Position numbers and translations under genes: made by a program. The notes under the pieces were generated by a model, which was given only the letters and a program-made list of their open reading frames with translations, made no database searches and was not told the origin of the DNA. Positions 39,204-52,568 of a DNA stretch of 64,000 bases are shown here, one piece after another; within the stretch, counting starts at the first letter, position 1; each line of letters begins with the position of its first letter. The stretch is from an uncultured Pseudomonadota bacterium (lineage in GTDB: Bacteria > Pseudomonadota > Alphaproteobacteria > RF32 > CAG-239): assembly GCA_949286215.1 (NCBI GenBank), contig CASDYX010000014.1, positions 18,373 through 82,372 of the forward strand, read 5' to 3'.

Positions 39204-39681
39204 GCATTCTTTAAAAATAGGATTAGACTTTCATGGCGTAATAAATCGTCATCCTTCTTATTTTAAAGATTTTACGGAAATAGCGGTCTCCAGAGGGCAC
39301 AAAATTTACATCATTACCGGAGGTCCGGCCGAAAAAATAGCCTGCTTTTTGAAGGGTTGGGGAATTTGCTATAATGAGCTGTTTGCCATAATGGATTATT
39401 ATGCGTCCAAAGGAGAAATTAAATTTTTTCCGGATGGAAGTTTTCACGTTGATGATGAGTTATGGAATACGGCCAAGGCCAAATTTTGCAAAAAATACCA
39501 AATTGATATTCATATTGATGATTCGGATGTTTACGGACAAAGTTTTTCCACGCCTTACTGTCAGTATGATGAAAAGAGCGGTATCTGCATGATTGATAAC
39601 AAATACAAGCTCAATTTATCATTACCTCCCGAAGAAGCCGTTATTCAATTGGAAAGAATTTTATCTAAACTTGAGAATTAG
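39193..39681 (+). CDS. HAD-superfamily-like protein
   Basis: IGLDFHGVI, IITGG, KAKFC and IHIDDS motifs (first motif atypical). Confidence 0.6.
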   Translation: MTTEHSLKIGLDFHGVINRHPSYFKDFTEIAVSRGHKIYIITGGPAEKIACFLKGWGICYNELFAIMDYYASKGEIKFFPDGSFHVDDELWNTAKAKFCKKYQIDIHIDDSDVYGQSFSTPYCQYDEKSGICMIDNKYKLNLSLPPEEAVIQLERILSKLEN

Positions 39682-40324
39682 CCTTCTTTTTCGCTTGATA
39701 AGTGTCAAATTTATCTTCAGCCCAAGTAACGTCAGACTTAACCAATCGAGCAGGGTTTCCGGCATAAATCGAGTGGCTTTCAGTTAAATCTTTTGTAACA
39801 ATACTTCCAGCCGCAACAATTACATCATCAGCGATTGTATTATTTTTGAGGACCATCACACGTTCGCCGAGCCACACATGGTTACCGATAGTAATTTCTT
39901 TTCCTTGGTTAATGGCATTCATGGAGTTAATATCAATAATGCTATGAAAGTCGGAAACATAAAGTCTGGTATCTTTAGCCGCCATAACTTCATCACCAAG
40001 TGTGAGAGAACTTCCTTTTTCCCACAAACCGCATTCTGTTCCTCTAAAAATACATCCTTTTCCGATTTTAACTTGAGTATTGTCGGTATCAATAATAATT
40101 TTTAAGGAACCCCAACACCCTTCATCAATCGAAATGGAGTTATCAGAACCGTTAATGATGATTTCTAATTTATAGAATTGGTTATTAGGGTGAATGTTCA
40201 GAACATTGTTGTTGCCGATAATTTTCACGGGACTACGGTCGTAAAAACCATTTCCTTTTATTTTCGGCGAAAGAATTTGATTGTTAGTACCTTTGATTTT
40301 AATGAGCTTTTTAAAGAGTTTCAT
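39665..40324 (-). CDS. Hexapeptide-repeat (LbH) O-acyltransferase
   Basis: SDFHSI, ITIGNHVWLGE, AAGSIVTK and YAGNPAR motifs. Confidence 0.88.
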   Translation of the reverse strand: MKLFKKLIKIKGTNNQILSPKIKGNGFYDRSPVKIIGNNNVLNIHPNNQFYKLEIIINGSDNSISIDEGCWGSLKIIIDTDNTQVKIGKGCIFRGTECGLWEKGSSLTLGDEVMAAKDTRLYVSDFHSIIDINSMNAINQGKEITIGNHVWLGERVMVLKNNTIADDVIVAAGSIVTKDLTESHSIYAGNPARLVKSDVTWAEDKFDTYQAKKKANSQV

Positions 40325-40979
40325 GATTTGTTTCTTTCCAGTTAATTAAGGCTTGGTCATAAGCCTCTTCCACCCAGTCAATATTTGTTTTTTTGCAGAT
40401 TGCGGGATTGCCGGCAAACATAGCATGTTCTGTTGACAAATCTTTGGTAACAATAGCACCGATGGCAAGAATAACATTGTCACAAATATGACAGTTTTTC
40501 AAAACCTTAACAGCTTCTCCAAGCCATACATGATTTCCGATAACAATTTCTTTTCCCTGATTAAGCGGCTTTTTTGATAAGGGGTCTATCACCGCATGAA
40601 AATCAGAGCAATAAAGCCTAGTTTCTTTGGCAAACATACAGCCTTCGCCAATAATAACCTGACTGTTATTTTCTTGCAAAACAATATCTGTGCCCATAAA
40701 GCCGGTTTTCAGTCCGACTTTGACTAAAGTGTTAGATGCTCTGATATCCAAATGTAGTTTTCCGTAACATCCTGCAGGCAAAATGACGGTGTTATTATTT
40801 CCCGTAATATTAATGTCTGTAAATTTCAGATAGTTAGGACCACCGATGTCAACTTTATTATTATTGCCATCAATTTTAAGAGAACCGTATTTCAAAAGTT
40901 CATTACGGCAATCTTTGGGAGTAATAAAGGAATTATTTTCGCCCTTGATAATGAATCTCTTTTTTCGAAACAATCTCAT
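40311..40979 (-). CDS. Hexapeptide-repeat O-acyltransferase, tandem paralog
   Basis: SDFHAV, IGNHVWLGE and FAGNPA motifs; same architecture as its neighbour. Confidence 0.88.
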   Translation of the reverse strand: MRLFRKKRFIIKGENNSFITPKDCRNELLKYGSLKIDGNNNKVDIGGPNYLKFTDINITGNNNTVILPAGCYGKLHLDIRASNTLVKVGLKTGFMGTDIVLQENNSQVIIGEGCMFAKETRLYCSDFHAVIDPLSKKPLNQGKEIVIGNHVWLGEAVKVLKNCHICDNVILAIGAIVTKDLSTEHAMFAGNPAICKKTNIDWVEEAYDQALINWKETNHETL

Positions 40980-41218
40980 AAGTTTTTATCTCCCAAGCAT
41001 TTACAAGCATAATCTCGATAAATGCGCAGTTGTTTTTGCAAAATATTGCAACGCCTTGAATGCAGACGATACTTTGCACTCTCTTTGGTATAGTTATAGC
41101 AAAGACGCTCCAAAGAGGGCAAGTAAGAAATATCACTTTTGAGAGGAAATACGTCGAATTTTAATTCTTTTTCCCAAAGAGCTTCAACACTTAAATGAAA
41201 ATAACCATTATCCGCCAT
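40976..41218 (-). CDS. Small hypothetical protein
   Basis: 80-aa ORF; start and stop overlap both neighbours. Confidence 0.5.
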   Translation of the reverse strand: MADNGYFHLSVEALWEKELKFDVFPLKSDISYLPSLERLCYNYTKESAKYRLHSRRCNILQKQLRIYRDYACKCLGDKNL

Positions 41219-41838
41219 TATTGTTCAGCCCAAACGATTCGGTTAATGAGCTTAATGTCTGTCATTTTCACTTGGACTTCTTGGTTTGGATTTAATATAT
41301 CACCAAACACGATTGTAGATGTTGTCCTATGCTTAAATTCTTTAATTAAAGGATTTCCTTGTTGCATTAGTACAATGACGCGGTCTCCTTTTCTGATTTC
41401 CAAATCTTTGGTAGCCACCAAAGTACAACCTTTTCGGTAAAGCGGTTCAAAATCGGCCGTGTCTAAATTAATGGCATAGAGGTTCACACTGCTGTCCGGA
41501 AATTGAACCTTATCCCACTTTTCTGTAACCAGTTTAGATGTTTTAATTGCAGCTTTAGTCGATAAATCCGAATAAGTAATAAAGGGAATCCCTGCAGGTT
41601 TAATGGTTAAATCTTCATCAATGAGTTGATAGAATTGTTCAAAAGAGACATTGCAGGCTTCCAAAATTTTATTAATGCTGTCAAGAGAAGGCCAGCGTTG
41701 TTTCCCGTCATTGCGAATTCTTTTGCTCTTATTAAAAGTTGTGGCGTCCAGACCGGCTTTTTTAGCCAATCCAGAAGGGGTTAAGCCGTGTAATTTTGCC
41801 AACTTATCAACAGCATCCCAAACTTGTTCATATTGCAT
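41218..41838 (-). CDS. XRE-type HTH + degenerate S24 domain repressor (CI/LexA-like)
   Basis: VWDAVDKLAK.HGLTPSGLAKKAGLDATTFNKSKR...RWPS HTH; C-terminal FEPLYRKG...GDRV..KEF S24-like fold lacking a clear catalytic Ser. Confidence 0.85.
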   Translation of the reverse strand: MQYEQVWDAVDKLAKLHGLTPSGLAKKAGLDATTFNKSKRIRNDGKQRWPSLDSINKILEACNVSFEQFYQLIDEDLTIKPAGIPFITYSDLSTKAAIKTSKLVTEKWDKVQFPDSSVNLYAINLDTADFEPLYRKGCTLVATKDLEIRKGDRVIVLMQQGNPLIKEFKHRTTSTIVFGDILNPNQEVQVKMTDIKLINRIVWAEQ

Positions 41839-41898
41839 TGTTCCTCCTTATTTTCTCAGATTTTTGCGAGAGTAAAACTACTATACAATAAAAAATCT

Positions 41899-41935
41899 TA
41901 GGAATCAATTCTTTTTTATGTTGAAATTCCTACAA
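41899..41935. promoter_or_regulatory. Putative repressor operator region
   Basis: TAGGAA-tcaa-TTCTT (41899-41913) and half-site TTCCTACAA (41927-41935); the motif recurs at 42727-42744. Confidence 0.5.
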
Positions 41936-41955
41936 CCTAATATATAACAGATAAA

Positions 41956-41971
41956 GTTAACGATTAGTTAA
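41956..41971 (-). promoter_or_regulatory. CtrA-box consensus
   Basis: Minus strand reads TTAA-CTAATCG-TTAAC (TTAA-N7-TTAAC), ~30 bp upstream of 42001. Confidence 0.5.
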
Positions 41972-42000
41972 AATAGAATATCAACACTGGGGGTTACTAA

Positions 42001-42336
42001 ATGCGAGAGGATTATGAACCTTTTGAAAACGCCGAAGAGGTCTGGTTTTGGTTTTGTGGTTGTATTATGGCAAGAGATGGAGGGTTGCGCTCTTGTAATG
42101 ATTTCAAAGGAAAAATCAGAAATTGTGAAGTAGCGGATATTTATCGTATCATCAAGAAGATGAAGCTAAATCATCAAATCACCAATCGCCACCTTCGTGT
42201 AATGGTTAAATGGGGACAGCTAGAGTGCTCGCCTTATTATCACTATCGCGCCAAAAGGAGTGAAATCAGACTCTGGGATGAAGGTTTACATGCGCTGGAA
42301 GGCTGGCTCTTGTCAAAGGGAATAATTACTCTATGA
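42001..42336 (+). CDS. Hypothetical protein, candidate activator/antiterminator of the cluster
   Basis: 111 aa, divergent from the repressor; PF..AEE.WFW...CE..DI...H..V...G...W...L..LE..L..KGI pattern that I recall from Rhodospirillales proteins (unverified). Confidence 0.6.
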   Translation: MREDYEPFENAEEVWFWFCGCIMARDGGLRSCNDFKGKIRNCEVADIYRIIKKMKLNHQITNRHLRVMVKWGQLECSPYYHYRAKRSEIRLWDEGLHALEGWLLSKGIITL

Positions 42337-42746
42337 GGTTAGATATCTTTGCTCCCAAGGCTTGTGAGCAATGTTATGTTGTCTTTGCCGATAATACCAC
42401 TTTGTGGTGGCTAAGGCTCCTCAAGCCCGGATTCAGGCATTGCTATATTTTGCTAAAGCTCAGAGGAAGAGGGCTCTGGGTCGAGCTTAATCCTTTGTCA
42501 AATCAAACAGCCATATTTGTTTATGAATATCCAGACACTTTTGATTTTGCTGATTATATTCGAAGGAGTCGCAATGTAATTTTGTGCCCGATAGATATAG
42601 CACAAGCCCCGCTCAAATGTGCACCGTTATCTTTTTTTACCTGTGTTGAATTTGTCAAGCGTGTGATAGGGCTACACGATTGTTTCATCCATACGCCGTG
42701 GCAACTTTATAAAAAAATATTAAAAATTGTAGGAAAAAGTTCTTGA
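42333..42746 (+). CDS. Hypothetical protein, possibly permuted papain-like (His...Cys)
   Basis: ATGA overlap with the upstream gene; GFRHCYI and FTCVEFVKRVIG motifs. Confidence 0.6.
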   Translation: MRLDIFAPKACEQCYVVFADNTTLWWLRLLKPGFRHCYILLKLRGRGLWVELNPLSNQTAIFVYEYPDTFDFADYIRRSRNVILCPIDIAQAPLKCAPLSFFTCVEFVKRVIGLHDCFIHTPWQLYKKILKIVGKSS

Positions 42747-42771
42747 CAAACGAAAAAAAATTTGCTACATA
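42727..42771 (+). promoter_or_regulatory. Promoter of the virion operon, overlapped by an operator-like motif
   Basis: TTGACA at 42743-42748 with weak -10 (CTACAT/TACATA); TTGTAGGAA-aaag-TTCTT overlaps the -35. Confidence 0.55.
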
Positions 42772-42813
42772 CAAAAACGCCACTTGCTATTAGTGTGTCC
42801 AAAGCAAAGTTAG

Positions 42814-42848
42814 ATTCGCAAGACATCAAGTCTTAGCGAATTTTTTTT
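42814..42848 (+). terminator. Leader intrinsic terminator ahead of terS
   Basis: 11-bp stem ATTCGCAAGAC/GTCTT(A)GCGAAT followed by a T8 run. Confidence 0.65.
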
Positions 42849-42878
42849 ATACCCAAAACCTGTAAGAAAGGAGTTAAA

Positions 42879-43196
42879 ATGCATTTCAAAAAGGCCAAGA
42901 CCTTAAAGTCCTTAAAGAAAAACTTGCAAAAGACTCTTCCCGAAAAGGTTTCACAGGTGTTAGAAAGTTATGAAACATTTTCGGAAAGACCAATCCCCGA
43001 AGATGCCAAAGGCTTTAGTGCACACCACAGCGCCTGCAAATCAGCGGTAACGCATGCAGAAACATTATTAAAGCTGGCTAAGTGGACCGAAGGCGAAACG
43101 TCTGAAAGCACAACTTCATCGGGCACGGAAGATATTCTAAAATTGCTTGCGGAAGCGAGAGCGGAATTGGACGGTGCGGAAGATGAAACAGATTAG
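42879..43196 (+). CDS. Probable terminase small subunit
   Basis: 105-aa helical protein with AAGGAG RBS, overlapping the terL start; assigned by position. Confidence 0.55.
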   Translation: MHFKKAKTLKSLKKNLQKTLPEKVSQVLESYETFSERPIPEDAKGFSAHHSACKSAVTHAETLLKLAKWTEGETSESTTSSGTEDILKLLAEARAELDGAEDETD

Positions 43197-44670
43197 TTTT
43201 TACGAGTTTATTTTCATCTGGTTCAAACTGCAAAATCTGAAAGTCCCGAAACACCAACGCAAAATAGCCAAGTGGCTGAGCTCACTTTGGCAAAACGAGC
43301 AAGACCGCCAAGGATTACTGATGGCATTTCGTAACTCAGGCAAATCCACCATTGTCGGTCTATTTTGTGCATGGGTCTTATATACCAAACCCTCAACCAG
43401 AATTTTGGTAATGGCAGCAGACCACGCTTTAGCCAAGAAAATGGTACGCAATGTCAAACGTATTATAGAGCAGCATCCGCTAACCCAACAGCTCAAACCC
43501 GAAAAATTGGAGCAATGGGCATCCGACCAATTTACCATTAGGCGAGATATGGAGTTACGCGACCCATCAATGTTGGCCAAAGGAATAGGGGCTAATATCA
43601 CGGGCTTGCGTGCCGACTTGATAATTTGTGATGACGTCGAGGTTCCCAAAAACTGCGATACACCTCTCAAACGGATTGAACTAAGGGAAAAACTCGAGGA
43701 GTTGGACTATATTCTAACGCCCGAGGGCATGCAGTTATACATCGGAACACCGCATACGTTTTATACCATTTATCAGGTGGACTATGATAATTCACGTCCG
43801 GAGATCGAGCCGTTTTTGCTTAATTTCAAAAAATTGGAAATTCCGATTTTAGATAAGAAAAATCAAAGCAGTTGGCCTGAGCGTTTTTCGGTAGAGAAAA
43901 TTGCCTCTCTTCGCCAACGTTCGGGAGAAAATAAGTTTTTGTCGCAGATGATGTTGCAACCTGTTAATTTCAGAGATTGCATACTCAATCCGGAAAGACT
44001 GTGTGTTTACAATTTGGAACTCACACAAACTTATGCCAACGGTCGAGAGGTTTTGCACTTGGGTGATAAAAAATTGCTTTCGGCATCTTGCTGGTGGGAT
44101 CCGTCTTTTGCCTCCTCATCGGGAGACAACAGCGTTATCGCTTGTGTCTTTACCGATGAAGATGGTAAGTTCTGGCTTCATGATATTGAATATATCAAAC
44201 TATCGGCTCAGTCGCAAGACAATCAAGCTTCGCTCCAATGTGAAAAGGTCGCTGATTTTATTGAGAGAAATCACCTGCCGTCCATTCGGGTAGAAGCCAA
44301 CGGTATTGGTAAGTTCTTACCCGGTATCTTAAAGCAAACCCTGCAAAGGCGCAAGATTCGAACAGCGGTTTTAGAGATGTATTCATCCACCGGCAAAGCC
44401 GCCCGTATTTTAGAGGCTTTTGAAGTTTTGCTGGCCGATAGGGCACTTAATGCGCATCGCCGAATATGGAACACGCCGTTTATTGAAGAAATGCGGGAGT
44501 GGAATACCGAAGGCAGCGTTCATGATGATGGTTTAGACGCGGTTGCCGGTTGTTTGTCATCTGAGCCGATACGTTTCACACAAGCTTATGCTGATATGGG
44601 CGACTATAAACGTTTCTCTTGGCAGGGAACTTCCGGTCAGTTTAAGGCGCAAACCAATTTTAGCATATAA
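43183..44670 (+). CDS. terL: Terminase large subunit (T7-like)
   Basis: Walker A LMAFRNSGKST, Walker B LIICDDVE, GTPH coupling motif, nuclease WWDPS and HDDGLDA. Confidence 0.92.
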   Translation: MKQISFYEFIFIWFKLQNLKVPKHQRKIAKWLSSLWQNEQDRQGLLMAFRNSGKSTIVGLFCAWVLYTKPSTRILVMAADHALAKKMVRNVKRIIEQHPLTQQLKPEKLEQWASDQFTIRRDMELRDPSMLAKGIGANITGLRADLIICDDVEVPKNCDTPLKRIELREKLEELDYILTPEGMQLYIGTPHTFYTIYQVDYDNSRPEIEPFLLNFKKLEIPILDKKNQSSWPERFSVEKIASLRQRSGENKFLSQMMLQPVNFRDCILNPERLCVYNLELTQTYANGREVLHLGDKKLLSASCWWDPSFASSSGDNSVIACVFTDEDGKFWLHDIEYIKLSAQSQDNQASLQCEKVADFIERNHLPSIRVEANGIGKFLPGILKQTLQRRKIRTAVLEMYSSTGKAARILEAFEVLLADRALNAHRRIWNTPFIEEMREWNTEGSVHDDGLDAVAGCLSSEPIRFTQAYADMGDYKRFSWQGTSGQFKAQTNFSI

Positions 44671-44681
44671 GGAATAAAACC

Positions 44682-44969
44682 ATGTTTAATGAATTGATAA
44701 ATTGGATGGCAATGATTGAAATACCGTTGTTTGTTGCGGTTTTTCGAATGTTGGTCAAACAAAGAAAAGAAATGGAGGAACAACTCCTAGCCACTCAAAA
44801 TCATACGGAGGGTAGAGTTGATATCTGTAAAGAATCATTAGCAGATTTCAAATTACATGTTGCCAGAAACTATGTTTCCACGGGCTACCTGAAAGATGTT
44901 GAAAACCGTTTAACCAATCACTTATTGAGAATTGAGAAAAAACTCGATGAAGTCGGGAGGTCAAGATGA
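44682..44969 (+). CDS. Holin-like or lysis accessory protein
   Basis: One N-terminal TM plus coiled coil ending RIEKKLD; directly upstream of the endolysin. Confidence 0.5.
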   Translation: MFNELINWMAMIEIPLFVAVFRMLVKQRKEMEEQLLATQNHTEGRVDICKESLADFKLHVARNYVSTGYLKDVENRLTNHLLRIEKKLDEVGRSR

Positions 44970-45382
44970 GTGAAGATTTGGACACATTAGCCCGTACGAT
45001 TTATGGGGAGGCACGAGGCGAGAGCATATCCGGAATGGAAGCTGTCGCCTCAGTTGTTTTAAATCGCTTGGCTTTCAGCCGAAGAAAAGGACGTTATTGG
45101 TGGGGCAATACGATTAAAGGCATATGTCGTTGTCCCTACCAATTTTCGTGTTGGAACAAGTCAGATTCCAACTATGCTCTGATACAAAGGGTTACAGATA
45201 CGGATATTATTTTTTGTATTTGCAAACGCATTGCAGGCAGAGCAATTTCTGGGGTTTTGGAAGATAATACGGCACATGCCACGCATTATCATACCAAAAA
45301 CACCAATCCTTCTTGGTCAAGGGGAAAAATTCCCTGTGCCGAGATAGGTCGTCATCTCTTTTACAATGATATTGAGACATAA
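44966..45382 (+). CDS. Cell wall hydrolase (SleB/Hydrolase_2), probable endolysin
   Basis: LARTIYGEARGE, VVLNR, PYQFSCWN, ATHYH and IGRHLFY motifs. Confidence 0.9.
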   Translation: MSEDLDTLARTIYGEARGESISGMEAVASVVLNRLAFSRRKGRYWWGNTIKGICRCPYQFSCWNKSDSNYALIQRVTDTDIIFCICKRIAGRAISGVLEDNTAHATHYHTKNTNPSWSRGKIPCAEIGRHLFYNDIET

Positions 45383-45742
45383 ATGATTTTTAAAACAAAG
45401 GCACCGATGACGCTGATGAAACTCATGCGTCATTTTTTTTGTGGCAGCGCGCTTGAAAGACGAAAGAGGCATGGTTCGTCTTGGGAGTGCAATTGGCGTC
45501 CGCTTTTTGGCTATTCGGTATGTCTGACATGGGTTTTGCAAATGAGCACGATATGTTGGGTTGTCTGGATAAATCACCCTCGAGCGGAAAAAATTATTAT
45601 GGCACTTGTTGAAACAACATCACTTTGGAGTATGGCTTTGGGTGTTATGGGAATTTCAGTGGTTAAAAGTCCCAACTTTACCGAGAAAAAATCTCAAACC
45701 TCAAAGTCATCTTCAAAGTCAAATCAAACACCCAACAACTGA
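45383..45742 (+). CDS. 3TM-type holin-like protein
   Basis: WRPLFGYSVCLTWVLQM followed by hydrophobic helices and a basic tail. Confidence 0.65.
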   Translation: MIFKTKAPMTLMKLMRHFFCGSALERRKRHGSSWECNWRPLFGYSVCLTWVLQMSTICWVVWINHPRAEKIIMALVETTSLWSMALGVMGISVVKSPNFTEKKSQTSKSSSKSNQTPNN

Positions 45743-45753
45743 AAGGAAAAACA

Positions 45754-45975
45754 ATGGGAGGAGTATTTAAAGTATTCAGCACACCAAAAATAAAACAACC
45801 GATTATTCCGGTAGTTGATACAGAGGCAGAAGCTCAAAAAAATGCCGAGCAAGAAAAACAAGAAAATATTGAACGTCAACGCCGAGGTCAAGAAGGTACA
45901 ATTCGCACATCATATAATGGCATTTTGGGAGAAAAGGAAGACAACCTAAAACGCAAAAACCTCTTGGGAGAATAG
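45754..45975 (+). CDS. Small virion protein preceding the portal
   Basis: 73 aa, MGG start, RRRG..GTI.TS..G...LLG pattern typical of podoviral pre-portal genes. Confidence 0.55.
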   Translation: MGGVFKVFSTPKIKQPIIPVVDTEAEAQKNAEQEKQENIERQRRGQEGTIRTSYNGILGEKEDNLKRKNLLGE

Positions 45976-45977
45976 AC

Positions 45978-47477
45978 ATGGAGCAGCAACTCGAAACCTT
46001 GGTCAGTCGCTACAAAAAGGCTGCCGAGAGAAAACAAAATTGGGAGGAACATTGGCGCGAATGCTATGAATATGCTTTTCCGCTCAGAGAAAATGTTAGC
46101 TCTTTTGGTGTTGACTCGCCGCAAGGCACCAAGAAAAACTTATGCTTGTTTGATGGTACGGCACCTGATGCGGTTGACCAATTAGCTTCTTCCTTGCTTT
46201 CCGAATTAACCCCTCCTTGGGCAAAGTGGTTTGGTCTCAGACCGGGCAATGAACTAAGCCCGACCGAGCAAGAGCAAGTTGCCCCGATTTTGGATAAATC
46301 TTCAGAAATTATGCTGCAAAACTTTGAGCACTCTAATTTTGCAGTCGAAGTTCATCAATGCTATCTAGATTTGGTAACAGTTGGTACGGCTTGTTTAATG
46401 TTTGAGGAGGCAGCAATTGGAGAGGCTACGGCATTTCACTTTTACGCGGTTCCCTTAAGAGAAATAGCCATAGAGGAAAGTTCGGATGGAAAAATTGATA
46501 CCACGTTTCGTTGCTCCAAACTTAATTTGGAAGGCATACGCACACGTTTTCCCGAAGCCCAAATGCCATCTTTCTTGCAGGAACGCCTAGAGCAAGACCG
46601 TGACTATCAGTTAAGCATTATAGAAGCTGTCTTGCCCAGAAATTACAATGCCGGTGCTTGTGGCTATGATTACATAGCTTTTGCTTGGGATGAAAACAGC
46701 GGTTATGAAGAGAGTTGTATCTTAAAAGAAGGTATTTTTGAAACCTCTCCCTTTATCAACTTTCGTTGGCTCAAGGCTCCGGGAGAAATTTATGGCCGCT
46801 CACCGGTTATGAAAGCTCTGCCGGATATTAAGACCGCCAACAAAGTCGTGGAGTTAATTTTGAAAAATGCCTCCATTTCGGTAACCGGAATTTGGCAAGC
46901 AGATGACGACGGCATCTTAAATCCTGATAACATCAAACTTGTTCCCGGAGCAATCATTCCTAAGGCGGTGGGCTCAAAAGGCTTAACTCCGCTGAGTGCT
47001 CCTGGCAATTTTGATGTTTCTCAGCTTATTCTTTCGGATTTACGTCAAAGAATAAACCATGCATTGCTGGCGGATAGACTGGCTCAAATTGCCACTCCGA
47101 ATATGACAGCTACGGAAGTTTTGGAGCGTTCGGCAGAAGTTGCAAGAATCTTAGGCGCCACATTTGGACGCCTGCAATCAGAATTGCTGACCCCGCTCTT
47201 GAAGCGAGCATTTCAAATTTTACGACGTCGTGGTGATATTCCGAATTTTGACTTAGACGGGAAAATTGTTGATCTGCAGTATAAATCACCTCTGGCTTTG
47301 GCACAAACCCGCAAGGACATTACCAATGTCAGTGAGTGGGTGTCAATGCTTGCCACCTTTGGGACAGACGCTTTAAATGCCGTCAATGTGGAAGAAGCCT
47401 CCAGATGGTTAGGCAAAACCCTTTGTGTCCCCTCTCAGTTGATAAGGGAAACACCGCTCGCCTCTGAGGCAAAGTAG
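45978..47477 (+). CDS. Portal (T7 gp8-like head-tail connector)
   Basis: LFDGTAPDAVDQLASSL..ELTPP..KWF, RW.K.PGE.YGRSP and MTATEVLER motifs. Confidence 0.92.
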   Translation: MEQQLETLVSRYKKAAERKQNWEEHWRECYEYAFPLRENVSSFGVDSPQGTKKNLCLFDGTAPDAVDQLASSLLSELTPPWAKWFGLRPGNELSPTEQEQVAPILDKSSEIMLQNFEHSNFAVEVHQCYLDLVTVGTACLMFEEAAIGEATAFHFYAVPLREIAIEESSDGKIDTTFRCSKLNLEGIRTRFPEAQMPSFLQERLEQDRDYQLSIIEAVLPRNYNAGACGYDYIAFAWDENSGYEESCILKEGIFETSPFINFRWLKAPGEIYGRSPVMKALPDIKTANKVVELILKNASISVTGIWQADDDGILNPDNIKLVPGAIIPKAVGSKGLTPLSAPGNFDVSQLILSDLRQRINHALLADRLAQIATPNMTATEVLERSAEVARILGATFGRLQSELLTPLLKRAFQILRRRGDIPNFDLDGKIVDLQYKSPLALAQTRKDITNVSEWVSMLATFGTDALNAVNVEEASRWLGKTLCVPSQLIRETPLASEAK

Positions 47478-47489
47478 CGGAGCAAGAGA

Positions 47490-47711
47490 ATGCAACCGTA
47501 TGATACCCGACACATGTCGGAAGCACAGATTCGTGAAGCATTTGTAAAATGCTTTTCGAGTAGGGAAGGGAGAATAGTCCTCTCTTACCTAAAACGTCTG
47601 ACACAGGAGCGATATTTGGGACCCGAAAGTTCTTCTGATGCATTGCGTCATCTGGAAGGGCAAAGACATCTGGTTTCAATAATTCAAAACAAGATATCAG
47701 ACGATAATTAA
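47490..47711 (+). CDS. Bbp19-like phage protein
   Basis: F.SREGRIVLSYL...LRHLEGQRHLV, located between portal and scaffold. Confidence 0.7.
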   Translation: MQPYDTRHMSEAQIREAFVKCFSSREGRIVLSYLKRLTQERYLGPESSSDALRHLEGQRHLVSIIQNKISDDN

Positions 47712-47729
47712 TCAAAGAAAGGAAAAAAC

Positions 47730-48452
47730 ATGAAAGAAAGACCAGTTGAAAATCTCAACGAAATGAATCTTGCAGCAGCTCAGAGTTCAGGTCCTTCAGC
47801 CCCGGCACAAGGGAAACCGGCAAATTTGCCGCCCAAATTCTGGGATGAAGCTACCCAAACAATAAAACTGCAAGAATTGATTGATGACTATAACTCTATG
47901 GCCATGAGAGATGAAAATCTGATAGAAACGCACAACCGCAATATGCCGGAAAGCTATGATAAATATCAGATAAAAATCCCAAATGAATTGTTGGATCATG
48001 ATGAAGAATTGTTCAAACAGTTTTATGAGCATGGCTTTACCAATGACCAAGCACAATTTGTCTATGACTTGGCCAATGAACGAGTCATTCCGGTTCTAGA
48101 CCAATTGACCGTAAATTTTGAGGCTCAAAAACAGCTTGCCAAGCTGACCAATTACTTTGGAGGCAGAGAGAGATTTGATGAAGTTTCTCGCCAAATTTCA
48201 GCTTGGGCAAAACAAAATTTGAGCGGGGACGTCTATGACGCTTTGGGCTCCACAGCCGAAGGCGTAATAGCCTTGTATAAGATGATGTCGTCTAACGAAC
48301 CTCTTCTTAGCAAAGATAATGGCTATGAAGGAGGGTTAAACGAACAAACCTTACGCAAGATGATGGAAGATCCACGTTACTGGCGAGATAAAGACAGTGC
48401 TTATATCAATAAGATTACGCGCGGATTTGAAAAACTCTACCCTGAAAAATAA
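47730..48452 (+). CDS. Capsid assembly scaffolding protein
   Basis: LPPKFWD, acidic helical body, C-terminal MMEDPRYWRDKD; immediately upstream of the capsid gene. Confidence 0.78.
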   Translation: MKERPVENLNEMNLAAAQSSGPSAPAQGKPANLPPKFWDEATQTIKLQELIDDYNSMAMRDENLIETHNRNMPESYDKYQIKIPNELLDHDEELFKQFYEHGFTNDQAQFVYDLANERVIPVLDQLTVNFEAQKQLAKLTNYFGGRERFDEVSRQISAWAKQNLSGDVYDALGSTAEGVIALYKMMSSNEPLLSKDNGYEGGLNEQTLRKMMEDPRYWRDKDSAYINKITRGFEKLYPEK

Positions 48453-48472
48453 ACCTTTTCAGGGCTTTTTTT
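48440..48472 (+). terminator. Intrinsic terminator between scaffold and capsid genes
   Basis: CCCTGAAAA/TTTTCAGGG stem plus T7. Confidence 0.55.
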
Positions 48473-48502
48473 ATATAGGTTAATCACAAATAGGAGGAAA
48501 AT

Positions 48503-49342
48503 ATGTCAACACAAATAACCGAATCCTTTATCAAACAATTTGAAGCTGATGTTCACTTGGCTTACCAACAAAACGGCTCAAAATTGAGAAATGCGGTTCG
48601 CACCAAAAACAATGTTAAAGGCTCATCCACCGTCTTCCAAAAAGTCGGCAAAGGTATGGCTTCACAAAAGGCACGCCACGGCTTGGTTCCGGTAATGTCT
48701 TTGGACCACACGCCGATTGAGTGCGAACTTCAAGACTACTATGCCGGCGATTGGGTAGATGCTTTGGATGAATTAAAAGTAAGCATTGATGAGCGCCGTG
48801 TTATTGCCAATTCCGGTGCTTATGCCTTGGGTCGCAAAACCGATGAATTAATTATTGATGCCTTGAGCAAAGCTCCCGAAGACAACGATGTCGGTGATTA
48901 TGGCTTGGCTATGAGCAAAAAGGATATTTTGGATGCTTTTGCCAAATTAAACTCTAACGATGTTCCCGATGACGGACAACGTTTTGGTTTGGTAGGTCCT
49001 TACCAATGGAATGCATTGCTCAACATTGCCGAGTTCTCAAATTCTGATTATGCCGGCGACAATCTGCCGTTCTTAAAAGGAACCGAGAGCCGTAAATGGT
49101 TGGGCATCAACTGGATTATGCACACCGGTTTGCCTTTAAGCGGAACAGAGCGTCAATGCTTTATTTTCCATAAAACAGCAGTCGGACATGCCTGCGGACA
49201 AGATGTCAAAAGCGATATCACCTGGCACGGTGACCATGCCGCACACTTCGTCAATAATATGATGAGCCAAGGCGCATGCTTAATCGACCCGACCGGTGTC
49301 GTTCGCATTAAGTGCAAAGAAGAATCTTCAATCAGCGAATAA
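48503..49342 (+). CDS. Major capsid protein (HK97 fold, podoviral)
   Basis: FIKQFEADVHLAYQQ.GSKLR, AYALGRKTDELII and WLGINWIMH motifs; strong GGAGG RBS; 279 aa. Confidence 0.88.
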   Translation: MSTQITESFIKQFEADVHLAYQQNGSKLRNAVRTKNNVKGSSTVFQKVGKGMASQKARHGLVPVMSLDHTPIECELQDYYAGDWVDALDELKVSIDERRVIANSGAYALGRKTDELIIDALSKAPEDNDVGDYGLAMSKKDILDAFAKLNSNDVPDDGQRFGLVGPYQWNALLNIAEFSNSDYAGDNLPFLKGTESRKWLGINWIMHTGLPLSGTERQCFIFHKTAVGHACGQDVKSDITWHGDHAAHFVNNMMSQGACLIDPTGVVRIKCKEESSISE

Positions 49343-49353
49343 GGAGAAAGAAA

Positions 49354-49611
49354 ATGTCGTTTATGTCAAAAGATTTTAGTGTAATGGCCTATGCCAATGG
49401 TTTTACACTTTGGAACTATTCTTCATCTGATGCATTAGCCACCATCAAAGGAGCAAATTACTTTGATGATATTGCGCCATTTGCTCGTGTAGGAGATATG
49501 ATTTTGACGGTAGCCGATAATCAAAGCACGGTTGCACCGGCCATTTTGGCGGTCACATCAATTGTAGACGGAGCTGTGAGCGTATCAGAGTTAGGCTCTG
49601 CTGCGGCATAA
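49354..49611 (+). CDS. Small virion protein (possible capsid decoration)
   Basis: 85 aa, AAGGAG RBS, YANGFTLWNY...NYF...RVGDMI. Confidence 0.6.
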   Translation: MSFMSKDFSVMAYANGFTLWNYSSSDALATIKGANYFDDIAPFARVGDMILTVADNQSTVAPAILAVTSIVDGAVSVSELGSAAA

Positions 49612-49639
49612 AATCACCAACACATTAATAGCAAAGGCG

Positions 49640-49675
49640 GGAGAAACCTTTTCATTAAAAGGTTTCTCCTTTTTT
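49640..49675 (+). terminator. Intrinsic terminator after the capsid genes
   Basis: Perfect 13-bp stem GGAGAAACCTTTT/AAAAGGTTTCTCC plus T6. Confidence 0.75.
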
Positions 49676-49691
49676 ATCAATGGAGAAATTC

Positions 49692-50261
49692 ATGAGTTAC
49701 ACCAACATAGGAATCTGTTCCAACGCATTATTAAAAATTGGTGCGGAAGGCATCACCTCGTTTGAAGACGGCACGGCGGAAGCAGAAATAGCCTACAGCT
49801 TGTATCCTCTGATTCGCGATAGCTTGCTGTCCTCATATCCGTGGAGTTTTGCCAAAGCGCAAAAAACTTTACCGCGATTAAATGATGTCCCGGTGGCTGA
49901 TTATCAGTATGCTTACTTATTGCCCAATGATTTTTTAAGAGTAATTTCTGCCGGTAACGGACGTAGAGGGCGGGGCATAGAATATCGCATTTACGAAAAT
50001 AGACTTCATACCAATTCAGAAAATGTAAGTCTGAGTTATATCTTTCGTCCGCATGAAAGTACTTTTCCGGCATTTTTCTGCGAGGCACTAATTTCCAAAT
50101 TAGCGGCAGAATTTTGCTTGCCCTTAACCGAGAGCACCACCCGTGCCGAGTTGTTAGAAAAACTAGCCGAAGAAACCATCAATAAAGCACGTCTGGTTGA
50201 TGCGCAACAAGGAACCCCCAGAACATTGGAAGACTATTCATTAATGGAGGCGAGGTTATGA
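49692..50261 (+). CDS. Tail tubular protein A (T7 gp11-like adaptor)
   Basis: ICSNALLKIGA..I, YP..RD.LL..YPWSFA, Y.LP.DFLR and F..ALISKLAAE motifs. Confidence 0.82.
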   Translation: MSYTNIGICSNALLKIGAEGITSFEDGTAEAEIAYSLYPLIRDSLLSSYPWSFAKAQKTLPRLNDVPVADYQYAYLLPNDFLRVISAGNGRRGRGIEYRIYENRLHTNSENVSLSYIFRPHESTFPAFFCEALISKLAAEFCLPLTESTTRAELLEKLAEETINKARLVDAQQGTPRTLEDYSLMEARL

Positions 50262-52159
50262 GTAATTTAGGTTCAGTAAAAACCAATTTTACGGCAGGAC
50301 AGGTTTCCATAGATTTGTTAGGTCGGGGTGATTTGCGGGTTTATGCCAACGGAGCGAGGCACCTTGAAAATGTAATAATTCATCCGACCGGTGGAGTTTC
50401 GCGCCGAAGAGGACTAAAGTTCATCAGCAAGATAGAAAAGCCCATGCGTCTTTTGCCGTTTGAATTTAATACCGAGCAAATATATTTATTGTGTTTGACA
50501 GATAATAAATTGCAGGTTCTAAAGGACGATAAGGTCATTGCCGAATTAGAAACACCGTGGGCAGGGGAACAATTGTTTCAGTTAAACTACACCCAAAGCG
50601 CCGATACATTTTTGATAGTTCACCCCGATGTTCCGCCCAAACAAATCACGCGTAACAATAACGAGGTTTGGAAAATTGAAGATTGGGAATATTATACGAA
50701 GGACGATATGATTTATATGCCTTACTATAATTTCTATCAGAAAAAGCCCAAACTTAAATCGAGCGGCAGTAGCGGGACTGTAACCATGACTTGCGATACG
50801 GATGTGTGGTTTGCAAGCCATGTCGGGAGTTATATTAACTTTCAAAAAGGCCTGGCAAAAATAACCGAAGTAACCGATTCCAAAGTTGTTCAAGCGCAAG
50901 TTATTAAAAGTTTTAGTTCATCCAGTCAAACCAATGATTGGTCAGAGTCAGCGTTTTCTAATGCCAGAGGTTGGCCTGTCTCTGTAACCTTCCATCAAAA
51001 CCGGATGGTAATAGGTGGTTCAAGGGATTTGCCTAACCGTCTATGGTTATCCAAATCATCAGATTTGTTTAACTTTGACTTAGGTACGGCGCTTGATGAT
51101 GAAGCGATAGAATTTGGAATTTTATCTGACCAGGTAAATGCCATCAAGGCGGTAGTTTCTTCCAGACACTTACTAGTGTTTACCACCGGTGCCGAGTGGA
51201 TGGTTACTGGCGAGCCTTTAACTCCTGAAAAAATCCAACTCAAACGTCAAACCAATGTTGGCATTTATTCGGAGAAAGTTTTGGCTCCCCAACAAATTGA
51301 TGGAGCAACGGTATTTGTTTCCAGAAGTGGCAGACAATTAAGAGAGTTTCTCTATACCGATGTTGAGCAAGCCTATCAAGCTAAGGACTTAACAATTCTA
51401 TCTAATGATATTATTCAGTCTCCACGAGATATAGGCTTTGACCAAGATGCTTGTGTTTTATATCTGGTTTTGGAAGATGGAACGATTTCTTGCCTTACAA
51501 CTTATCGCACAGAGGAAGTAACGGCTTGGAGTAAATTAACAACATCTGGAAAATTTTTATCCGTTGCCGTAATTGGTACCGAAATTTATTTTTGTGTGCA
51601 GCGCGCTAACGGTTATTTTCTGGAGAAACTAGCAGATGATTATTATTCTGATTGCGCCATACGCCTTACATCAGAAGTAGCACAAAGAGAGTGGGGTGGG
51701 CTTGAAAATCTGGAAGGAGAGAAGGTTGTTGTTCTGGCCAATGGCTTTAGTTTAGGTGAATTTCAGGTAGAAGAGGGAGAAATACACCTCTTAGATGAAG
51801 CAACTGAAATTTTGGTCGGTATCCCCTATGAACATTGGATAGAACCTCTGCCATACATGGTAGAGAGTGAAAGGCCATATTCTCCGAAAGCACTAAGAGT
51901 AATCAATGCACGCTTTCGAATTATAAATTCCAAATCTTTGTGTATTGATATTGGCGGTGGATATTTCCAATATCCATTAAAAAGAATTCATCAGGATCAG
52001 ATTTTTGATGCTCCGCCAATGACTTATTCAGGAGATGTGCAGATGAGAGCTTTAGGCTGGATAAGAGATATGAATAAACCGATGTGGAGTATAAAAAGTA
52101 ATGAGCCTTTGGCTTTTACGCTTTTATCCGCAGTAGTAGAAATAAAACTCAAAGAATAA
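50258..52159 (+). CDS. Tail tubular protein B (T7 gp12-like nozzle)
   Basis: NFTAGQVS...GR.D, GG..RRRG, FHQNRMVIGG..P.RLWLS and W.KL.T.G.F motifs. Confidence 0.85.
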   Translation: MSNLGSVKTNFTAGQVSIDLLGRGDLRVYANGARHLENVIIHPTGGVSRRRGLKFISKIEKPMRLLPFEFNTEQIYLLCLTDNKLQVLKDDKVIAELETPWAGEQLFQLNYTQSADTFLIVHPDVPPKQITRNNNEVWKIEDWEYYTKDDMIYMPYYNFYQKKPKLKSSGSSGTVTMTCDTDVWFASHVGSYINFQKGLAKITEVTDSKVVQAQVIKSFSSSSQTNDWSESAFSNARGWPVSVTFHQNRMVIGGSRDLPNRLWLSKSSDLFNFDLGTALDDEAIEFGILSDQVNAIKAVVSSRHLLVFTTGAEWMVTGEPLTPEKIQLKRQTNVGIYSEKVLAPQQIDGATVFVSRSGRQLREFLYTDVEQAYQAKDLTILSNDIIQSPRDIGFDQDACVLYLVLEDGTISCLTTYRTEEVTAWSKLTTSGKFLSVAVIGTEIYFCVQRANGYFLEKLADDYYSDCAIRLTSEVAQREWGGLENLEGEKVVVLANGFSLGEFQVEEGEIHLLDEATEILVGIPYEHWIEPLPYMVESERPYSPKALRVINARFRIINSKSLCIDIGGGYFQYPLKRIHQDQIFDAPPMTYSGDVQMRALGWIRDMNKPMWSIKSNEPLAFTLLSAVVEIKLKE

Positions 52160-52169
52160 AGGAGGAACC

Positions 52170-52568
52170 ATGGGAGAGTTAATGACGGCTCAAAATGCAA
52201 GTAAGGGAGCAAGCAGTACTCAAGAAATTTATAATATGATTGAAGACAATAAAAATCTTCGAGATAATTATGAGCTTAATCAATATAATCTCGTTCACAA
52301 ACAACGCTCCAATCACTTGAAAAAACAAAATATCCTAGAGGAGAACCTAGCCAAACGCCGAGCGCGTGTGGCGGCAATGGGTATGAGCGGCGATGGTTCT
52401 GCTTCTGCCGAACAAAAAAGAGAAGCCTATGAAGGATATAAAGATATTGCGGAAGATGATTACGATTATTATCAGCAATATAAAACCAACAGGGTTAACA
52501 CAAAATATAAAATTCGCAGCAATGCGGTAAATGGTATTTTAAATGCGACCCAAAGCCTACTCAAATAA
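52170..52568 (+). CDS. Putative internal virion (ejection) protein
   Basis: 132 aa helical, RARVAAMGMSGDGS motif; last gene before the terminator. Confidence 0.5.
   Translation: MGELMTAQNASKGASSTQEIYNMIEDNKNLRDNYELNQYNLVHKQRSNHLKKQNILEENLAKRRARVAAMGMSGDGSASAEQKREAYEGYKDIAEDDYDYYQQYKTNRVNTKYKIRSNAVNGILNATQSLLK

What the first reader, a model, noticed from the sequence alone, without database searches (positions are those of the whole stretch)
41899..42744. Recurring TAGGAA-N4-TTCTT operator-like motif at both control points of the cluster
TAGGAAtcaaTTCTT lies in the divergent repressor/42001 intergenic region, with a further half-site TTCCTACAA at 41927. TTGTAGGAAaaagTTCTT overlaps the TTGACA -35 of the structural operon. 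A quasi-palindrome at exactly these two places is what a dimeric repressor site should look like. From memory (to be verified), the Caulobacter GTA repressor RogA is an HTH/S24-type protein that binds GGAA-N4-TTCC. If so, a structurally unrelated particle would be using the same host repressor family.
Basis: partly seen in the sequence, partly recalled or inferred. Interest (0 to 1): 0.65.

Follow-up and report, generated by a model that had tools for sequence, protein, structure and literature searches.

The report
RogA-type operators on a podovirus-like particle cluster
The repeated TAGGAA-N4-TTCT motif is real, deeply conserved, and most likely the DNA site of a repressor orthologous to RogA of Caulobacter, which here appears to shut off directly the promoters of a chromosomally fixed, T7-like particle gene set rather than RogA's known target, gafYZ.

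Summary
TAGGAA-N4-TTCTT occurs twice in the window against 0.09 expected, and those are its only two copies in the 1.6-Mb genome.

Both sites are conserved in orthologous promoters of about 17 genera, while the flanking DNA has diverged. A third, perfect copy (TAGGAAaaaaTTCC-TTGACA) heads an unlinked tail-fibre locus on another contig.

The 206-aa HTH/S24-like repressor is the reciprocal best hit of Caulobacter RogA: 33% identity over the full length, one hit in each genome. The Caulobacter gafYZ promoter carries the same extended site, TAGGAAtatcTTCC.

Within the family, 18 of 18 genomes with the repressor carry such operator-promoter units (45 in total). None of the 19 genomes without it do (p = 6e-11).

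The genome has no gafY or gafZ. The two neighbouring small ORFs are unrelated to them.

Each late promoter carries an operator abutting -35, a fixed -10-like box near +13 and an intrinsic terminator. This points to direct repression combined with Q-type antitermination.

The cluster sits at one chromosomal site across at least 10 genera, with empty sites elsewhere, so it looks GTA-like.

Binding itself is inferred, not shown. I rate it a new variant of a known kind.

The parts
41218..41838 (-). Repressor gene, 206 aa, with an HTH and an S24-like domain. It is the ortholog of Caulobacter RogA.
   Evidence: Pfam gives HTH_26 and Peptidase_S24. BLASTP against RogA gives 33% identity over the full length, E 3e-42. 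It is a reciprocal single best hit. The recognition helix TTFNKSKR is invariant in the family, and the catalytic Ser motif GDSM is replaced by TADF.
41899..41913 (.). Operator O1, TAGGAA-tcaa-TTCT(T). It overlaps the -35 of the repressor's own leftward promoter.
   Evidence: TAGGAA is kept in 16 of 17 orthologs. The -35 TTGATT (41908-41903, minus strand) with a 17-bp spacer and TATAGT comes from the promoter scan.
41880..41908 (-). Predicted promoter of the repressor gene: TTGATT, 17-bp spacer, TATAGT.
   Evidence: Consensus scan. The TATA block is conserved in the alignment. No transcript data are available.
41919..41935 (.). Operator O2, TGTT-gaaa-TTCCTA(CAA). The strong half-site is inverted relative to O1. 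It overlaps the -35 (TTGAAA, 41921-41926) and the spacer of the rightward promoter.
   Evidence: The block TTGAAATTCCTACAAC is almost invariant in 17 orthologs. The O1+O2 layout (14+6+14 bp) mirrors the Caulobacter PgafYZ layout (14+7+14 bp).
41921..41948 (+). Predicted promoter of ORF111/ORF137: TTGAAA, 16-bp spacer, TATAAC.
   Evidence: Read from the sequence. Both hexamers are conserved. This is an inference without a mapped transcript start.
41957..41971 (.). TTAA-N7-TTAA box of the CtrA type, between the predicted -10 and the ribosome-binding site of ORF111.
   Evidence: Both TTAA blocks lie in columns marked at least 90% conserved across the 17 aligned orthologous regions. Its position is about +3 to +17 of the predicted transcript, which is inferred.
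42001..42336 (+). ORF111, a small all-helical protein and the candidate antiterminator or activator.
   Evidence: It is conserved next to the repressor in about 20 genomes. It has no Pfam, PDB or Caulobacter homolog. The AF2 model has pLDDT 85, and its best PDB fold hits are the antiterminator Q21, but at E about 1 and TM 0.45-0.49.
42333..42746 (+). ORF137, a conserved partner of unknown fold with invariant His36, Cys37 and Cys104. Its 3' end overlaps operator O3.
   Evidence: The AF2 model has pLDDT 85 and no structural match. There is no Caulobacter homolog.
42727..42744 (.). Operator O3, (TTG)TAGGAA-aaag-TTCT, abutting and overlapping the -35 of the structural operon promoter.
   Evidence: TAGGAA is present in 17 of 17 orthologs at a fixed 7-8 bp from TTGAC. 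It is read in two different reading frames, or lies in non-coding DNA, in different orthologs, so the constraint acts on the DNA.
42743..42771 (+). Late promoter: TTGACA, 17-bp spacer, TGcTACATA.
42781..42796 (+). Leader box CACTTGCtatTAGTGT. It contains a lineage-specific box followed by a -10-like element, TAGTGT, at about +13.
   Evidence: A (T/A)A(G/A)TG(T/C) block was found 60-64 nt after TAGGAA in 26 of 36 promoters of this type. The box upstream of it varies by genome but is shared by the promoters within a genome.
42814..42848 (+). Intrinsic terminator in the leader, upstream of the first structural gene.
   Evidence: A hairpin of -13.8 kcal/mol followed by a T run. The equivalent element is present in 34 of 36 promoters of this type, with different hairpin sequences.
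42879..52568 (+). T7-like structural and lysis operon: small-terminase-like ORF, terminase, SleB-type hydrolase, portal, scaffold, capsid, tail tube A and B, and small ORFs.
   Evidence: Pfam and PHROG hits. Order and flanks are conserved in at least 10 genera.

Best explanation
The motif is the operator of the divergently encoded repressor, an ortholog of Caulobacter RogA. RogA is an HTH plus S24-like protein that has lost the self-cleavage serine.

Proposed mechanism:
1. Repressor dimers bind 14-bp sites of the form TAGGAA-N4-TTCY.
2. In the divergent region, O1 covers the -35 of the repressor's own promoter, giving autoregulation. O2 covers the -35 and spacer of the ORF111/ORF137 promoter.
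3. A single operator abuts the -35 of each 'late' promoter. In this genome those are the T7-like structural operon in the window and an unlinked tail-fibre locus on another contig.
4. Each late promoter is also followed by a lineage-specific box, a -10-like pause element near +13 and an intrinsic terminator. Expression would therefore need two events: loss of repression, and a processive antiterminator made from the derepressed ORF111/ORF137 operon. ORF111 is the better candidate.

What is shown: the motif, its conservation, its genome-wide exclusivity, its co-occurrence with the repressor gene, the orthology to RogA and the identity with the RogA site in Caulobacter.

What is inferred: physical binding, the sign of regulation, the transcript starts, the antiterminator role and the inducing signal.
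For: Orthology:
- BLASTP of the repressor against RogA gives 33% identity over 210 residues, E 3e-42.
- It is a reciprocal single best hit in both genomes.
- RogA was fetched using primer sequences from Table S3 of PMC9632790.

Same DNA word:
- Caulobacter PgafYZ reads aaTAGGAAtatcTTCCtctgtgcGGAAtataAACCTA.
- The paper reports purified RogA binding to the probes that span this region.

Link to the repressor gene:
- The recognition helix is invariant across the family, and so is TAGGAA.
- Stand-alone RogA-like genes with no ORF111/137 beside them still have every TAGGAA/TTCCTA hexamer of their 3.6-kb locus within about 110 bp upstream of the gene.

Conservation and exclusivity:
-.
- Typed operator-promoter units occur in 18 of 18 family genomes with the repressor (45 sites) and in 0 of 19 without it, Fisher p = 5.7e-11.
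- A third unit heads a tail-fibre locus.
- Site O3 is conserved regardless of reading frame.

Positions: O1 and O2 overlap the -35 elements of the two divergent promoters, which are classic repressor positions.

Second key: leader terminators in 34 of 36 units and a fixed -10-like box. The leader box co-varies with the genome while the operator does not.
Against: - No binding, transcript or expression data exist for this organism.
- At the late promoters the palindrome is centred near -41, which is also the classic position of a class II activator. Lambda cI, a relative of this protein, activates from -42.
- The right half-site is degenerate at O1 and O3, and O2 has only one good half.
- In Caulobacter, ChIP-seq found RogA only at PgafYZ and CCNA_02002, not at structural promoters. 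Direct repression of structural promoters would therefore be new behaviour for this family.
- The similarity of ORF111 to Q21 is below significance.
Confidence: 0.72

Rival explanations
1. The motif is the binding site of an activator or antiterminator encoded by ORF111 or ORF137. This would be a class II-type site centred near -41 at the late promoters and an autoregulatory site in the divergent region. The repressor would then act elsewhere or only at O2.
For: At all late promoters the site lies at a fixed 7-8 bp from TTGAC, centred at about -41. That is a typical activator geometry. ORF111 and ORF137 always accompany the motif within this family.
Against: - Caulobacter has the same TAGGAA-N4-TTCC word at a promoter that RogA binds, and it has no ORF111/137 homolog.
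- Stand-alone RogA-like genes lacking ORF111/137 still carry TAGGAA sites upstream.
- The motif is invariant, like the repressor's recognition helix. ORF111/137 diverge to 30-40% identity, and it is the leader box, not the motif, that changes with them.
- The late promoters already have a perfect TTGACA and an extended -10, so they should not need an activator.
Confidence: 0.12
2. This is an ordinary, possibly defective, temperate podovirus prophage with its own cI-like immunity repressor and operators. The resemblance to RogA reflects only the general HTH-S24 family, and there is no GTA-like domestication.
For: - A repressor divergent from a lytic operon, with operators in between, is the standard prophage layout.
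- The repressor gene is present only where the cluster is present.
- The capsid has phage relatives, at 44% identity to a Pelagibacter phage.
Against: - The relation to RogA is a specific reciprocal best hit with a shared operator word, not a generic family match.
- The surveyed locus contains no integrase or replication genes, and no tRNA lies next to it.
- The chromosomal site is the same, between asmA-HAD and est232-sbp345, in at least 10 genera whose asmA is down to 43% identical. All frames are intact, and structural-gene identity tracks host-gene identity.
- The tail-fibre locus is unlinked and embedded among housekeeping genes.
- No phage record holds a homolog of the repressor or of ORF111.
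Confidence: 0.1
3. The motif is a chance or compositional feature of AT-rich promoter DNA, for example an UP-element-like tract, with no dedicated binding protein.
For: The genome is AT-rich. The 9-mer TTGTAGGAA alone is not significant. The right halves of the sites are degenerate.
Against: - Two hits against 0.09 expected, and unique in the genome.
- Conserved across 17 genera amid diverged flanks.
- Perfect association with presence of the repressor gene.
- Kept as an AT-rich island in a high-GC genome.
Confidence: 0.03

Closest known systems
RogA (CCNA_00080) of Caulobacter crescentus and its GGAA-N4-TTCC operators at the gafYZ promoter (Gozzi et al. 2022, PMC9632790)
   Same: - It is the reciprocal best hit of the window's repressor and has the same length class (206 aa against 213 aa).
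- It has the same HTH plus S24-like architecture, with the nucleophile serine lost.
- The recognition helix is nearly identical: TTFNKSKR here, TSFNRSKR in RogA.
- The extended operator word is the same, TAGGAA-N4-TTCC.
- The layout of two 14-bp sites in inverted order over a core promoter is the same, 34 bp here against 35 bp.
- Both control phage-derived particle genes.
   Different: - Here there is no gafY or gafZ.
- The repressor is physically linked to the particle cluster.
- Operators also sit on the structural promoters themselves and on an unlinked tail-fibre locus.
- The particle is T7-like, not HK97/RcGTA-like.
- The S24 lysine is retained here, whereas RogA has Arg at that position.
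Q-type antitermination of GTA clusters: BrrG of BaGTA (bioRxiv 10.1101/2024.11.20.624540) and GafZ of CcGTA (PMC11150451), modelled on the lambdoid Q/PR'/tR' system
   Same: - A strong sigma-70-type promoter (TTGACA with a 17-bp spacer).
- A -10-like NANNNT element just downstream.
- A terminator between the promoter and the first structural gene.
- A small regulator encoded nearby.
   Different: - The antiterminator has not been identified. ORF111 resembles Q21 only weakly.
- Here a repressor operator is fused to the -35 of the same promoter. That has not been described for BaGTA or CcGTA.
- Several unlinked loci share the same unit.
Lambda cI/Cro-type immunity region of temperate phages
   Same: A divergent repressor and lytic-side promoter pair with operators overlapping both -35 elements, and a repressor of the HTH-S24 class.
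   Different: - No self-cleavage serine, so RecA-mediated induction is not expected.
- No Cro-like HTH gene was recognised.
- No integrase or replication genes.
- A fixed chromosomal site across genera.

Membership tests
RogA-family repressors | N-terminal HTH plus C-terminal LexA/cI (S24)-like domain, about 210 aa | tested here: met
   Pfam gives HTH_26 (E 1e-4) and Peptidase_S24 (E 1e-4). The full-length alignment to RogA has no large gaps.
RogA-family repressors | Orthology to CCNA_00080 by reciprocal best hit | tested here: met
   The window protein finds a single hit in C. vibrioides, which is RogA, at E 2e-31. RogA finds a single hit in the window's genome, which is this gene, at E 2e-32.
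RogA-family repressors | Key S24 catalytic residues missing | tested here: met
   The serine motif GDSM of distant homologs is TADF here and GDDL in RogA. The lysine position is K here and R in RogA, so the loss here is partial: the nucleophile only.
RogA-family repressors | Binds GGAA-N4-TTCC inverted repeats | not testable with these tools
   Matching sites lie at three promoters, and the recognition helix is conserved. Binding itself needs EMSA, SPR or footprinting.
RogA-family repressors | Represses the GTA activator operon gafYZ or gafA | tested here: not met
   tblastn finds no gafY or gafZ homolog in the genome. HMMs of ORF111 and ORF137 find nothing in Caulobacter. The target set is different.
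Gene transfer agents (domesticated phage particles) | Structural, packaging and lysis genes only, with no integration or replication module | tested here: met
   Annotation of 41218-52568 and its flanks. No tRNA lies at the borders.
Gene transfer agents (domesticated phage particles) | Vertical inheritance at a fixed chromosomal locus, co-diverging with the host | tested here: met
   The same flanks are found in at least 10 genera, and portal and capsid identity tracks asmA identity. Clean empty sites exist in other members. No formal tree test was run.
Gene transfer agents (domesticated phage particles) | Essential particle genes scattered at unlinked loci under common control | tested here: met
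   A tail-fibre locus on contig C19 has the same operator, promoter, leader and terminator, and is flanked by ftsB, an M23 peptidase, bactofilin and smpB. Homologous loci occur in four other genomes.
Gene transfer agents (domesticated phage particles) | Particles package random host DNA shorter than the cluster and transfer it | not testable with these tools
The only hint is a 5,084-bp human-faecal 'phage' contig whose capsid gene is 80% identical.
Q-type processive antitermination units | Promoter-proximal -10-like pause element plus a downstream intrinsic terminator | tested here: met
   A (T/A)A(G/A)TG(T/C) block was found 60-64 nt after TAGGAA in 26 of 36 units, and terminators in 34 of 36 units. 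This is sequence evidence only.
Q-type processive antitermination units | A Q-like DNA-binding antiterminator protein | tested here: inconclusive
   For the ORF111 model (pLDDT 85), the top PDB hits are Q21 (6jnx_P, 6p1a_C, 6p18_Q), but at E 1.2-3.8 and TM 0.45-0.49. The viral library gave nothing decisive.

The most novel reading that the evidence does not exclude
RogA-family repressors may be a master switch for domesticated phage particles in Alphaproteobacteria that does not depend on the particle type.

In this family of small-genome gut Alphaproteobacteria, such a repressor would directly gate, together with a Q-like antiterminator, a chromosomally fixed, multi-locus, T7-like gene-transfer or killer particle. 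In sister genera the regulon extends to polymorphic peptidoglycan-hydrolase and toxin-domain genes.

This would be a third independently domesticated particle lineage in the class. It would share its repressor with RcGTA/CcGTA-type agents but not their activators.
Probability: 0.45. Interest if true: 0.85.

Novelty: new variant of a known kind. Interest (0 to 1): 0.74.

Why it matters
RogA is so far known from one organism, with two bound promoters, as the repressor of the activators of an HK97-type GTA. Three things would follow if this reading holds.

1. **A portable repressor-operator pair.** The pair would be far older and more portable than the GafYZ circuit. It can be wired straight onto structural promoters, and it can serve a structurally unrelated, T7-like particle.

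2. **A testable model of how phage particles become host-controlled.** The model is a conserved 14-bp operator fused to -35, followed by a pause box and a terminator. This unit is copied to every locus of the regulon.

3. **A genomic signature.** The signature is TAGGAA-N4-TTCC-TTGACA plus the leader. With it, all the unlinked parts of such elements can be found in uncultured gut Alphaproteobacteria.

Tried and rejected
**Are ORF111 and ORF137 a GafY/GafZ pair?** Rejected.
- Pfam and NCBIfam give no hits.
- Their HMMs find nothing in Caulobacter at E up to 10.
- BLASTP against GafY and GafZ, fetched from C. vibrioides, gives only noise.

**Solved structures by sequence** for the repressor, ORF111 and ORF137: nothing below E 0.2.

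**Fold searches.**
- ORF137 has no match.
- ORF111 has only sub-threshold Q21 hits.

**Rfam** on 41700-43000: only a chance snoRNA hit.

**Phage records.** No homolog of the repressor or of ORF111.

**Word-based homolog searches.**
- For ORF111 the search reached only close, unnamed relatives.
- For the repressor alignment it returned 8000 or more S24-HTH proteins, with no Caulobacter entry among the top 120. RogA was therefore fetched through primer sequences from the paper's Table S3 instead.

**Is the structural cluster homologous to BaGTA bgtA-K?** This could not be tested.

**Site-specific integration.** No tRNA adjoins the cluster, and the surveyed locus has no integrase.

Full report
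**1. Observation**

The sequence shows TAGGAAtcaaTTCTT at 41899-41913 and TTCCTACAA at 41927-41935. It shows TTGTAGGAAaaagTTCTT at 42727-42744.

The last two bases of that third element are the first two of TTGACA (42743-42748). A 17-bp spacer and TGcTACATA follow (-10 at 42766-42771).

The pattern TAGGAANNNNTTCTT has 2 matches in the window against 0.09 expected, and no shuffle reached 2. In the whole 1.6-Mb assembly these are its only two copies. The 9-mer TTGTAGGAA alone is not significant.

**2. Surroundings**

- 41218-41838 (minus strand) encodes a 206-aa HTH plus S24-like protein.
- ORF111 (42001-42336) and ORF137 (42333-42746) lie divergent from it. Neither has a family assignment.
- A T7-like operon then runs to 52568. 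It encodes a small-terminase-like ORF, terminase, SleB-type hydrolase, portal (PF12236), T7 scaffold, capsid (PF19821), tail tubes A and B, and small ORFs.
- No integrase or replication gene is present, and there is no adjoining tRNA.

**3. Conservation**

A search of 61 relatives found the repressor in 26 of them.

In 17 genus-level orthologous regions the divergent intergenic DNA is unalignable except for four blocks:
- TAGGAAtcAAnTC-TTTTTT
- TTGAAATTCCTACAAC
- a TATAA -10
- a TTAA-N7-TTAA box

At the second site, TAGGAA lies 7-8 bp from TTGAC in all 17 regions. A conserved leader follows it.

The motif overlaps the 3' end of ORF137, but in different ways in different orthologs. It is read in one frame in the window (K I V G K S S stop) and in another in L013 (K S R K K L L T K). 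In L006 and L007 it lies mostly beyond the stop codon. The constraint therefore acts on the DNA and not on the protein.

**4. Is the repressor RogA-like?**

RogA (CCNA_00080) is 213 aa, with an HTH and an S24-like domain that lacks the catalytic residues. The gafYZ promoter fragments it binds feature two GGAA-N4-TTCC inverted repeats.

I took primer sequences from the paper's Table S3 and used them to fetch rogA from Caulobacter vibrioides DSM 9893.

- BLASTP gives 33% identity over the full length, E 3e-42.
- Each protein finds only the other in the other genome.
- The recognition helix (TTFNKSKR; RogA has TSFNRSKR) and the RWPS motif are invariant across a 14-member alignment spanning many families.
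- The serine motif GDSM of distant homologs is TADF here and GDDL in RogA.

**5. The Caulobacter site**

The gafYZ upstream region reads aaTAGGAAtatcTTCC-tctgtgc-GGAAtataAACCTA. It has the same extended word TAGGAA and the same layout of two 14-bp sites in inverted order: 35 bp in total, against 34 bp for O1+O2 here.

Stand-alone RogA-like genes in high-GC genomes have no ORF111/137 beside them. Even so, every TAGGAA/TTCCTA hexamer of their 3.6-kb loci lies within about 110 bp upstream of the gene. Caulobacter rogA itself has TAGGTTtactTTCCTA upstream.

This ties the word to the repressor rather than to ORF111/137.

**6. Different wiring**

The genome has no gafY or gafZ. HMMs of ORF111 and ORF137 find nothing in Caulobacter.

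**7. A regulon**

A third site, TAGGAAaaaaTTCC-TTGACA, lies on contig C19. It has the same leader (GCCACTTG...GTGCCCAAA) and a terminator.

It heads a podovirus tail-fibre-like gene (phrog_1640 and phrog_6518) and four small ORFs. These are embedded among ftsB, an M23 peptidase, bactofilin and smpB.

Across the family:
- Typed units (TAGGAA-N4-WTCC-TTGAC or TAGGAA-N5-TC-TTGAC) occur in 18 of 18 genomes with the repressor, 45 sites in total.
- They occur in 0 of 19 genomes without it, p = 5.7e-11.

In sister genera the extra units head several kinds of gene:
- tail-fibre homologs
- proteins with PG_binding_1 plus a lysozyme or GH108 domain
- an Ntox44-domain protein

**8. A second key**

In 34 of 36 units an intrinsic terminator lies between the promoter and the first ORF. 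Its hairpin sequence differs from unit to unit. A -10-like (T/A)A(G/A)TG(T/C) block was found 60-64 nt after TAGGAA, at about +13, in 26 of the 36 units.

The box just upstream of that block is specific to each genome but shared by all the promoters of one genome. Identity is 0.56 within genomes against 0.35 between them. The operator is nearly constant, at 0.80 against 0.70.

This is the layout of lambdoid Q systems. It is also the layout of the two GTA antitermination systems now described: BrrG of BaGTA and GafZ.

The ORF111 model (pLDDT 85) has Q21 as its best PDB match, but below significance. The ORF137 model matches nothing.

**9. Domestication**

The cluster lies between asmA-HAD(-acyltransferase) and est232-sbp345-o225 in at least 10 genera. 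All frames are intact, and identities track those of asmA.

Members without the cluster have a clean empty site, asmA-HAD-acT-est232.

Three genomes of other families, one of 5.9 Mb and high GC, carry repressor-ORF111-ORF137-portal...tail tube B with an (A/G)GAA-N4-TTCC-TTGACA promoter.

No phage record has the repressor or ORF111. The capsid is 44% identical to that of a Pelagibacter podovirus and 80% identical to one on a 5,084-bp human-faecal contig.

**10. Mechanism proposed**

The repressor binds O1, which gives autorepression, and O2, which represses the ORF111/137 promoter. It also binds the single operators abutting -35 of every late promoter.

When repression is lifted, ORF111 and ORF137 are made and one of them lets RNA polymerase pass the leader and internal terminators. 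The signal that lifts repression is unknown. RecA-type self-cleavage is unlikely because the serine is missing.

The conserved TTAA-N7-TTAA box at about +3 to +17 of the ORF111 transcript suggests an input from CtrA.

*Shown:* sequence features, conservation, co-occurrence and orthology.
*Inferred:* binding, the sign of regulation, the transcript starts and the antiterminator role.

The main rival is that the motif is an activator site centred at -41. That fits the geometry but not the Caulobacter and stand-alone-gene evidence.

**11. Limits**

No formal co-phylogeny test was run. Homology to BaGTA structural genes was not tested.

An earlier AI note on another genome reaches a similar reading. 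It counts only as a lead.

Noticed in passing
window 41957-41971: A TTAA-N7-TTAA box (here the palindrome TTAAC-N5-GTTAA) lies between the predicted -10 and the RBS of ORF111. Both TTAA blocks lie in columns marked at least 90% conserved across the 17 aligned orthologous intergenic regions. Its position, at about +3 to +17, would suit repression rather than activation by CtrA.
   Followed up: partly
G000 contig C19:33094-36100 (locus L042:3095-6100): An unlinked locus carries a perfect TAGGAAaaaaTTCC-TTGACA unit with leader box and terminator. It encodes a podovirus tail-fibre-like protein (342 aa) and four small ORFs, flanked by ftsB, an M23 peptidase, bactofilin and smpB. This is probably the 'missing' fibre of the particle.
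   Followed up: yes
loci L073-L091 (genomes G017, G019, G026, G031, G032): In sister genera up to 7 copies of the same operator-promoter-leader unit head polymorphic genes. One group shares an N-terminus with a PG_binding_1 domain, fused to phage lysozyme, GH108 or an SAA-like domain. Another gene carries an Ntox44 toxin domain. These could be ejected or cargo proteins of the particle.
   Followed up: partly
window 48503-49342 vs GenBank MT838907.1: The capsid gene is 80% identical to one on a 5,084-bp 'Bacteriophage sp.' contig from human faecal samples. The host lineage is therefore probably a human-gut alphaproteobacterium, and DNA of such elements turns up in virome data.
   Followed up: no
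L030:859-1060 (Caulobacter vibrioides, upstream of rogA): Caulobacter rogA itself has TAGGTTtactTTCCTA about 50 bp upstream of its start codon. This is a RogA-type site, although the published ChIP-seq reported only two RogA peaks elsewhere.
   Followed up: no
window 42333-42746: ORF137 gives a confident AF2 model (pLDDT 85, pTM 0.81) with invariant His36, Cys37 and Cys104, but no structural match in the PDB. It is better conserved than the repressor. Whether it inactivates the non-cleavable repressor is an open idea.
   Followed up: partly
L101, L102, L103 (genomes G060, G039, G046): Other alphaproteobacterial families, including a 5.9-Mb high-GC genome, carry the same repressor-ORF111-ORF137 module. 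There it is followed directly by portal...tail tube B, with the terminase and SleB further downstream. An AT-rich AGAA-N4-TTCC-TTGACA island stands out in the GC-rich DNA.
   Followed up: partly
window 39665-41218: The repressor overlaps, start to stop, an 80-aa ORF that is conserved next to it in many genomes (29-70% identity). In this genome two hexapeptide acyltransferase genes follow. One acyltransferase remains at the empty site in genomes without the cluster, so those genes belong to the host flank.
   Followed up: partly
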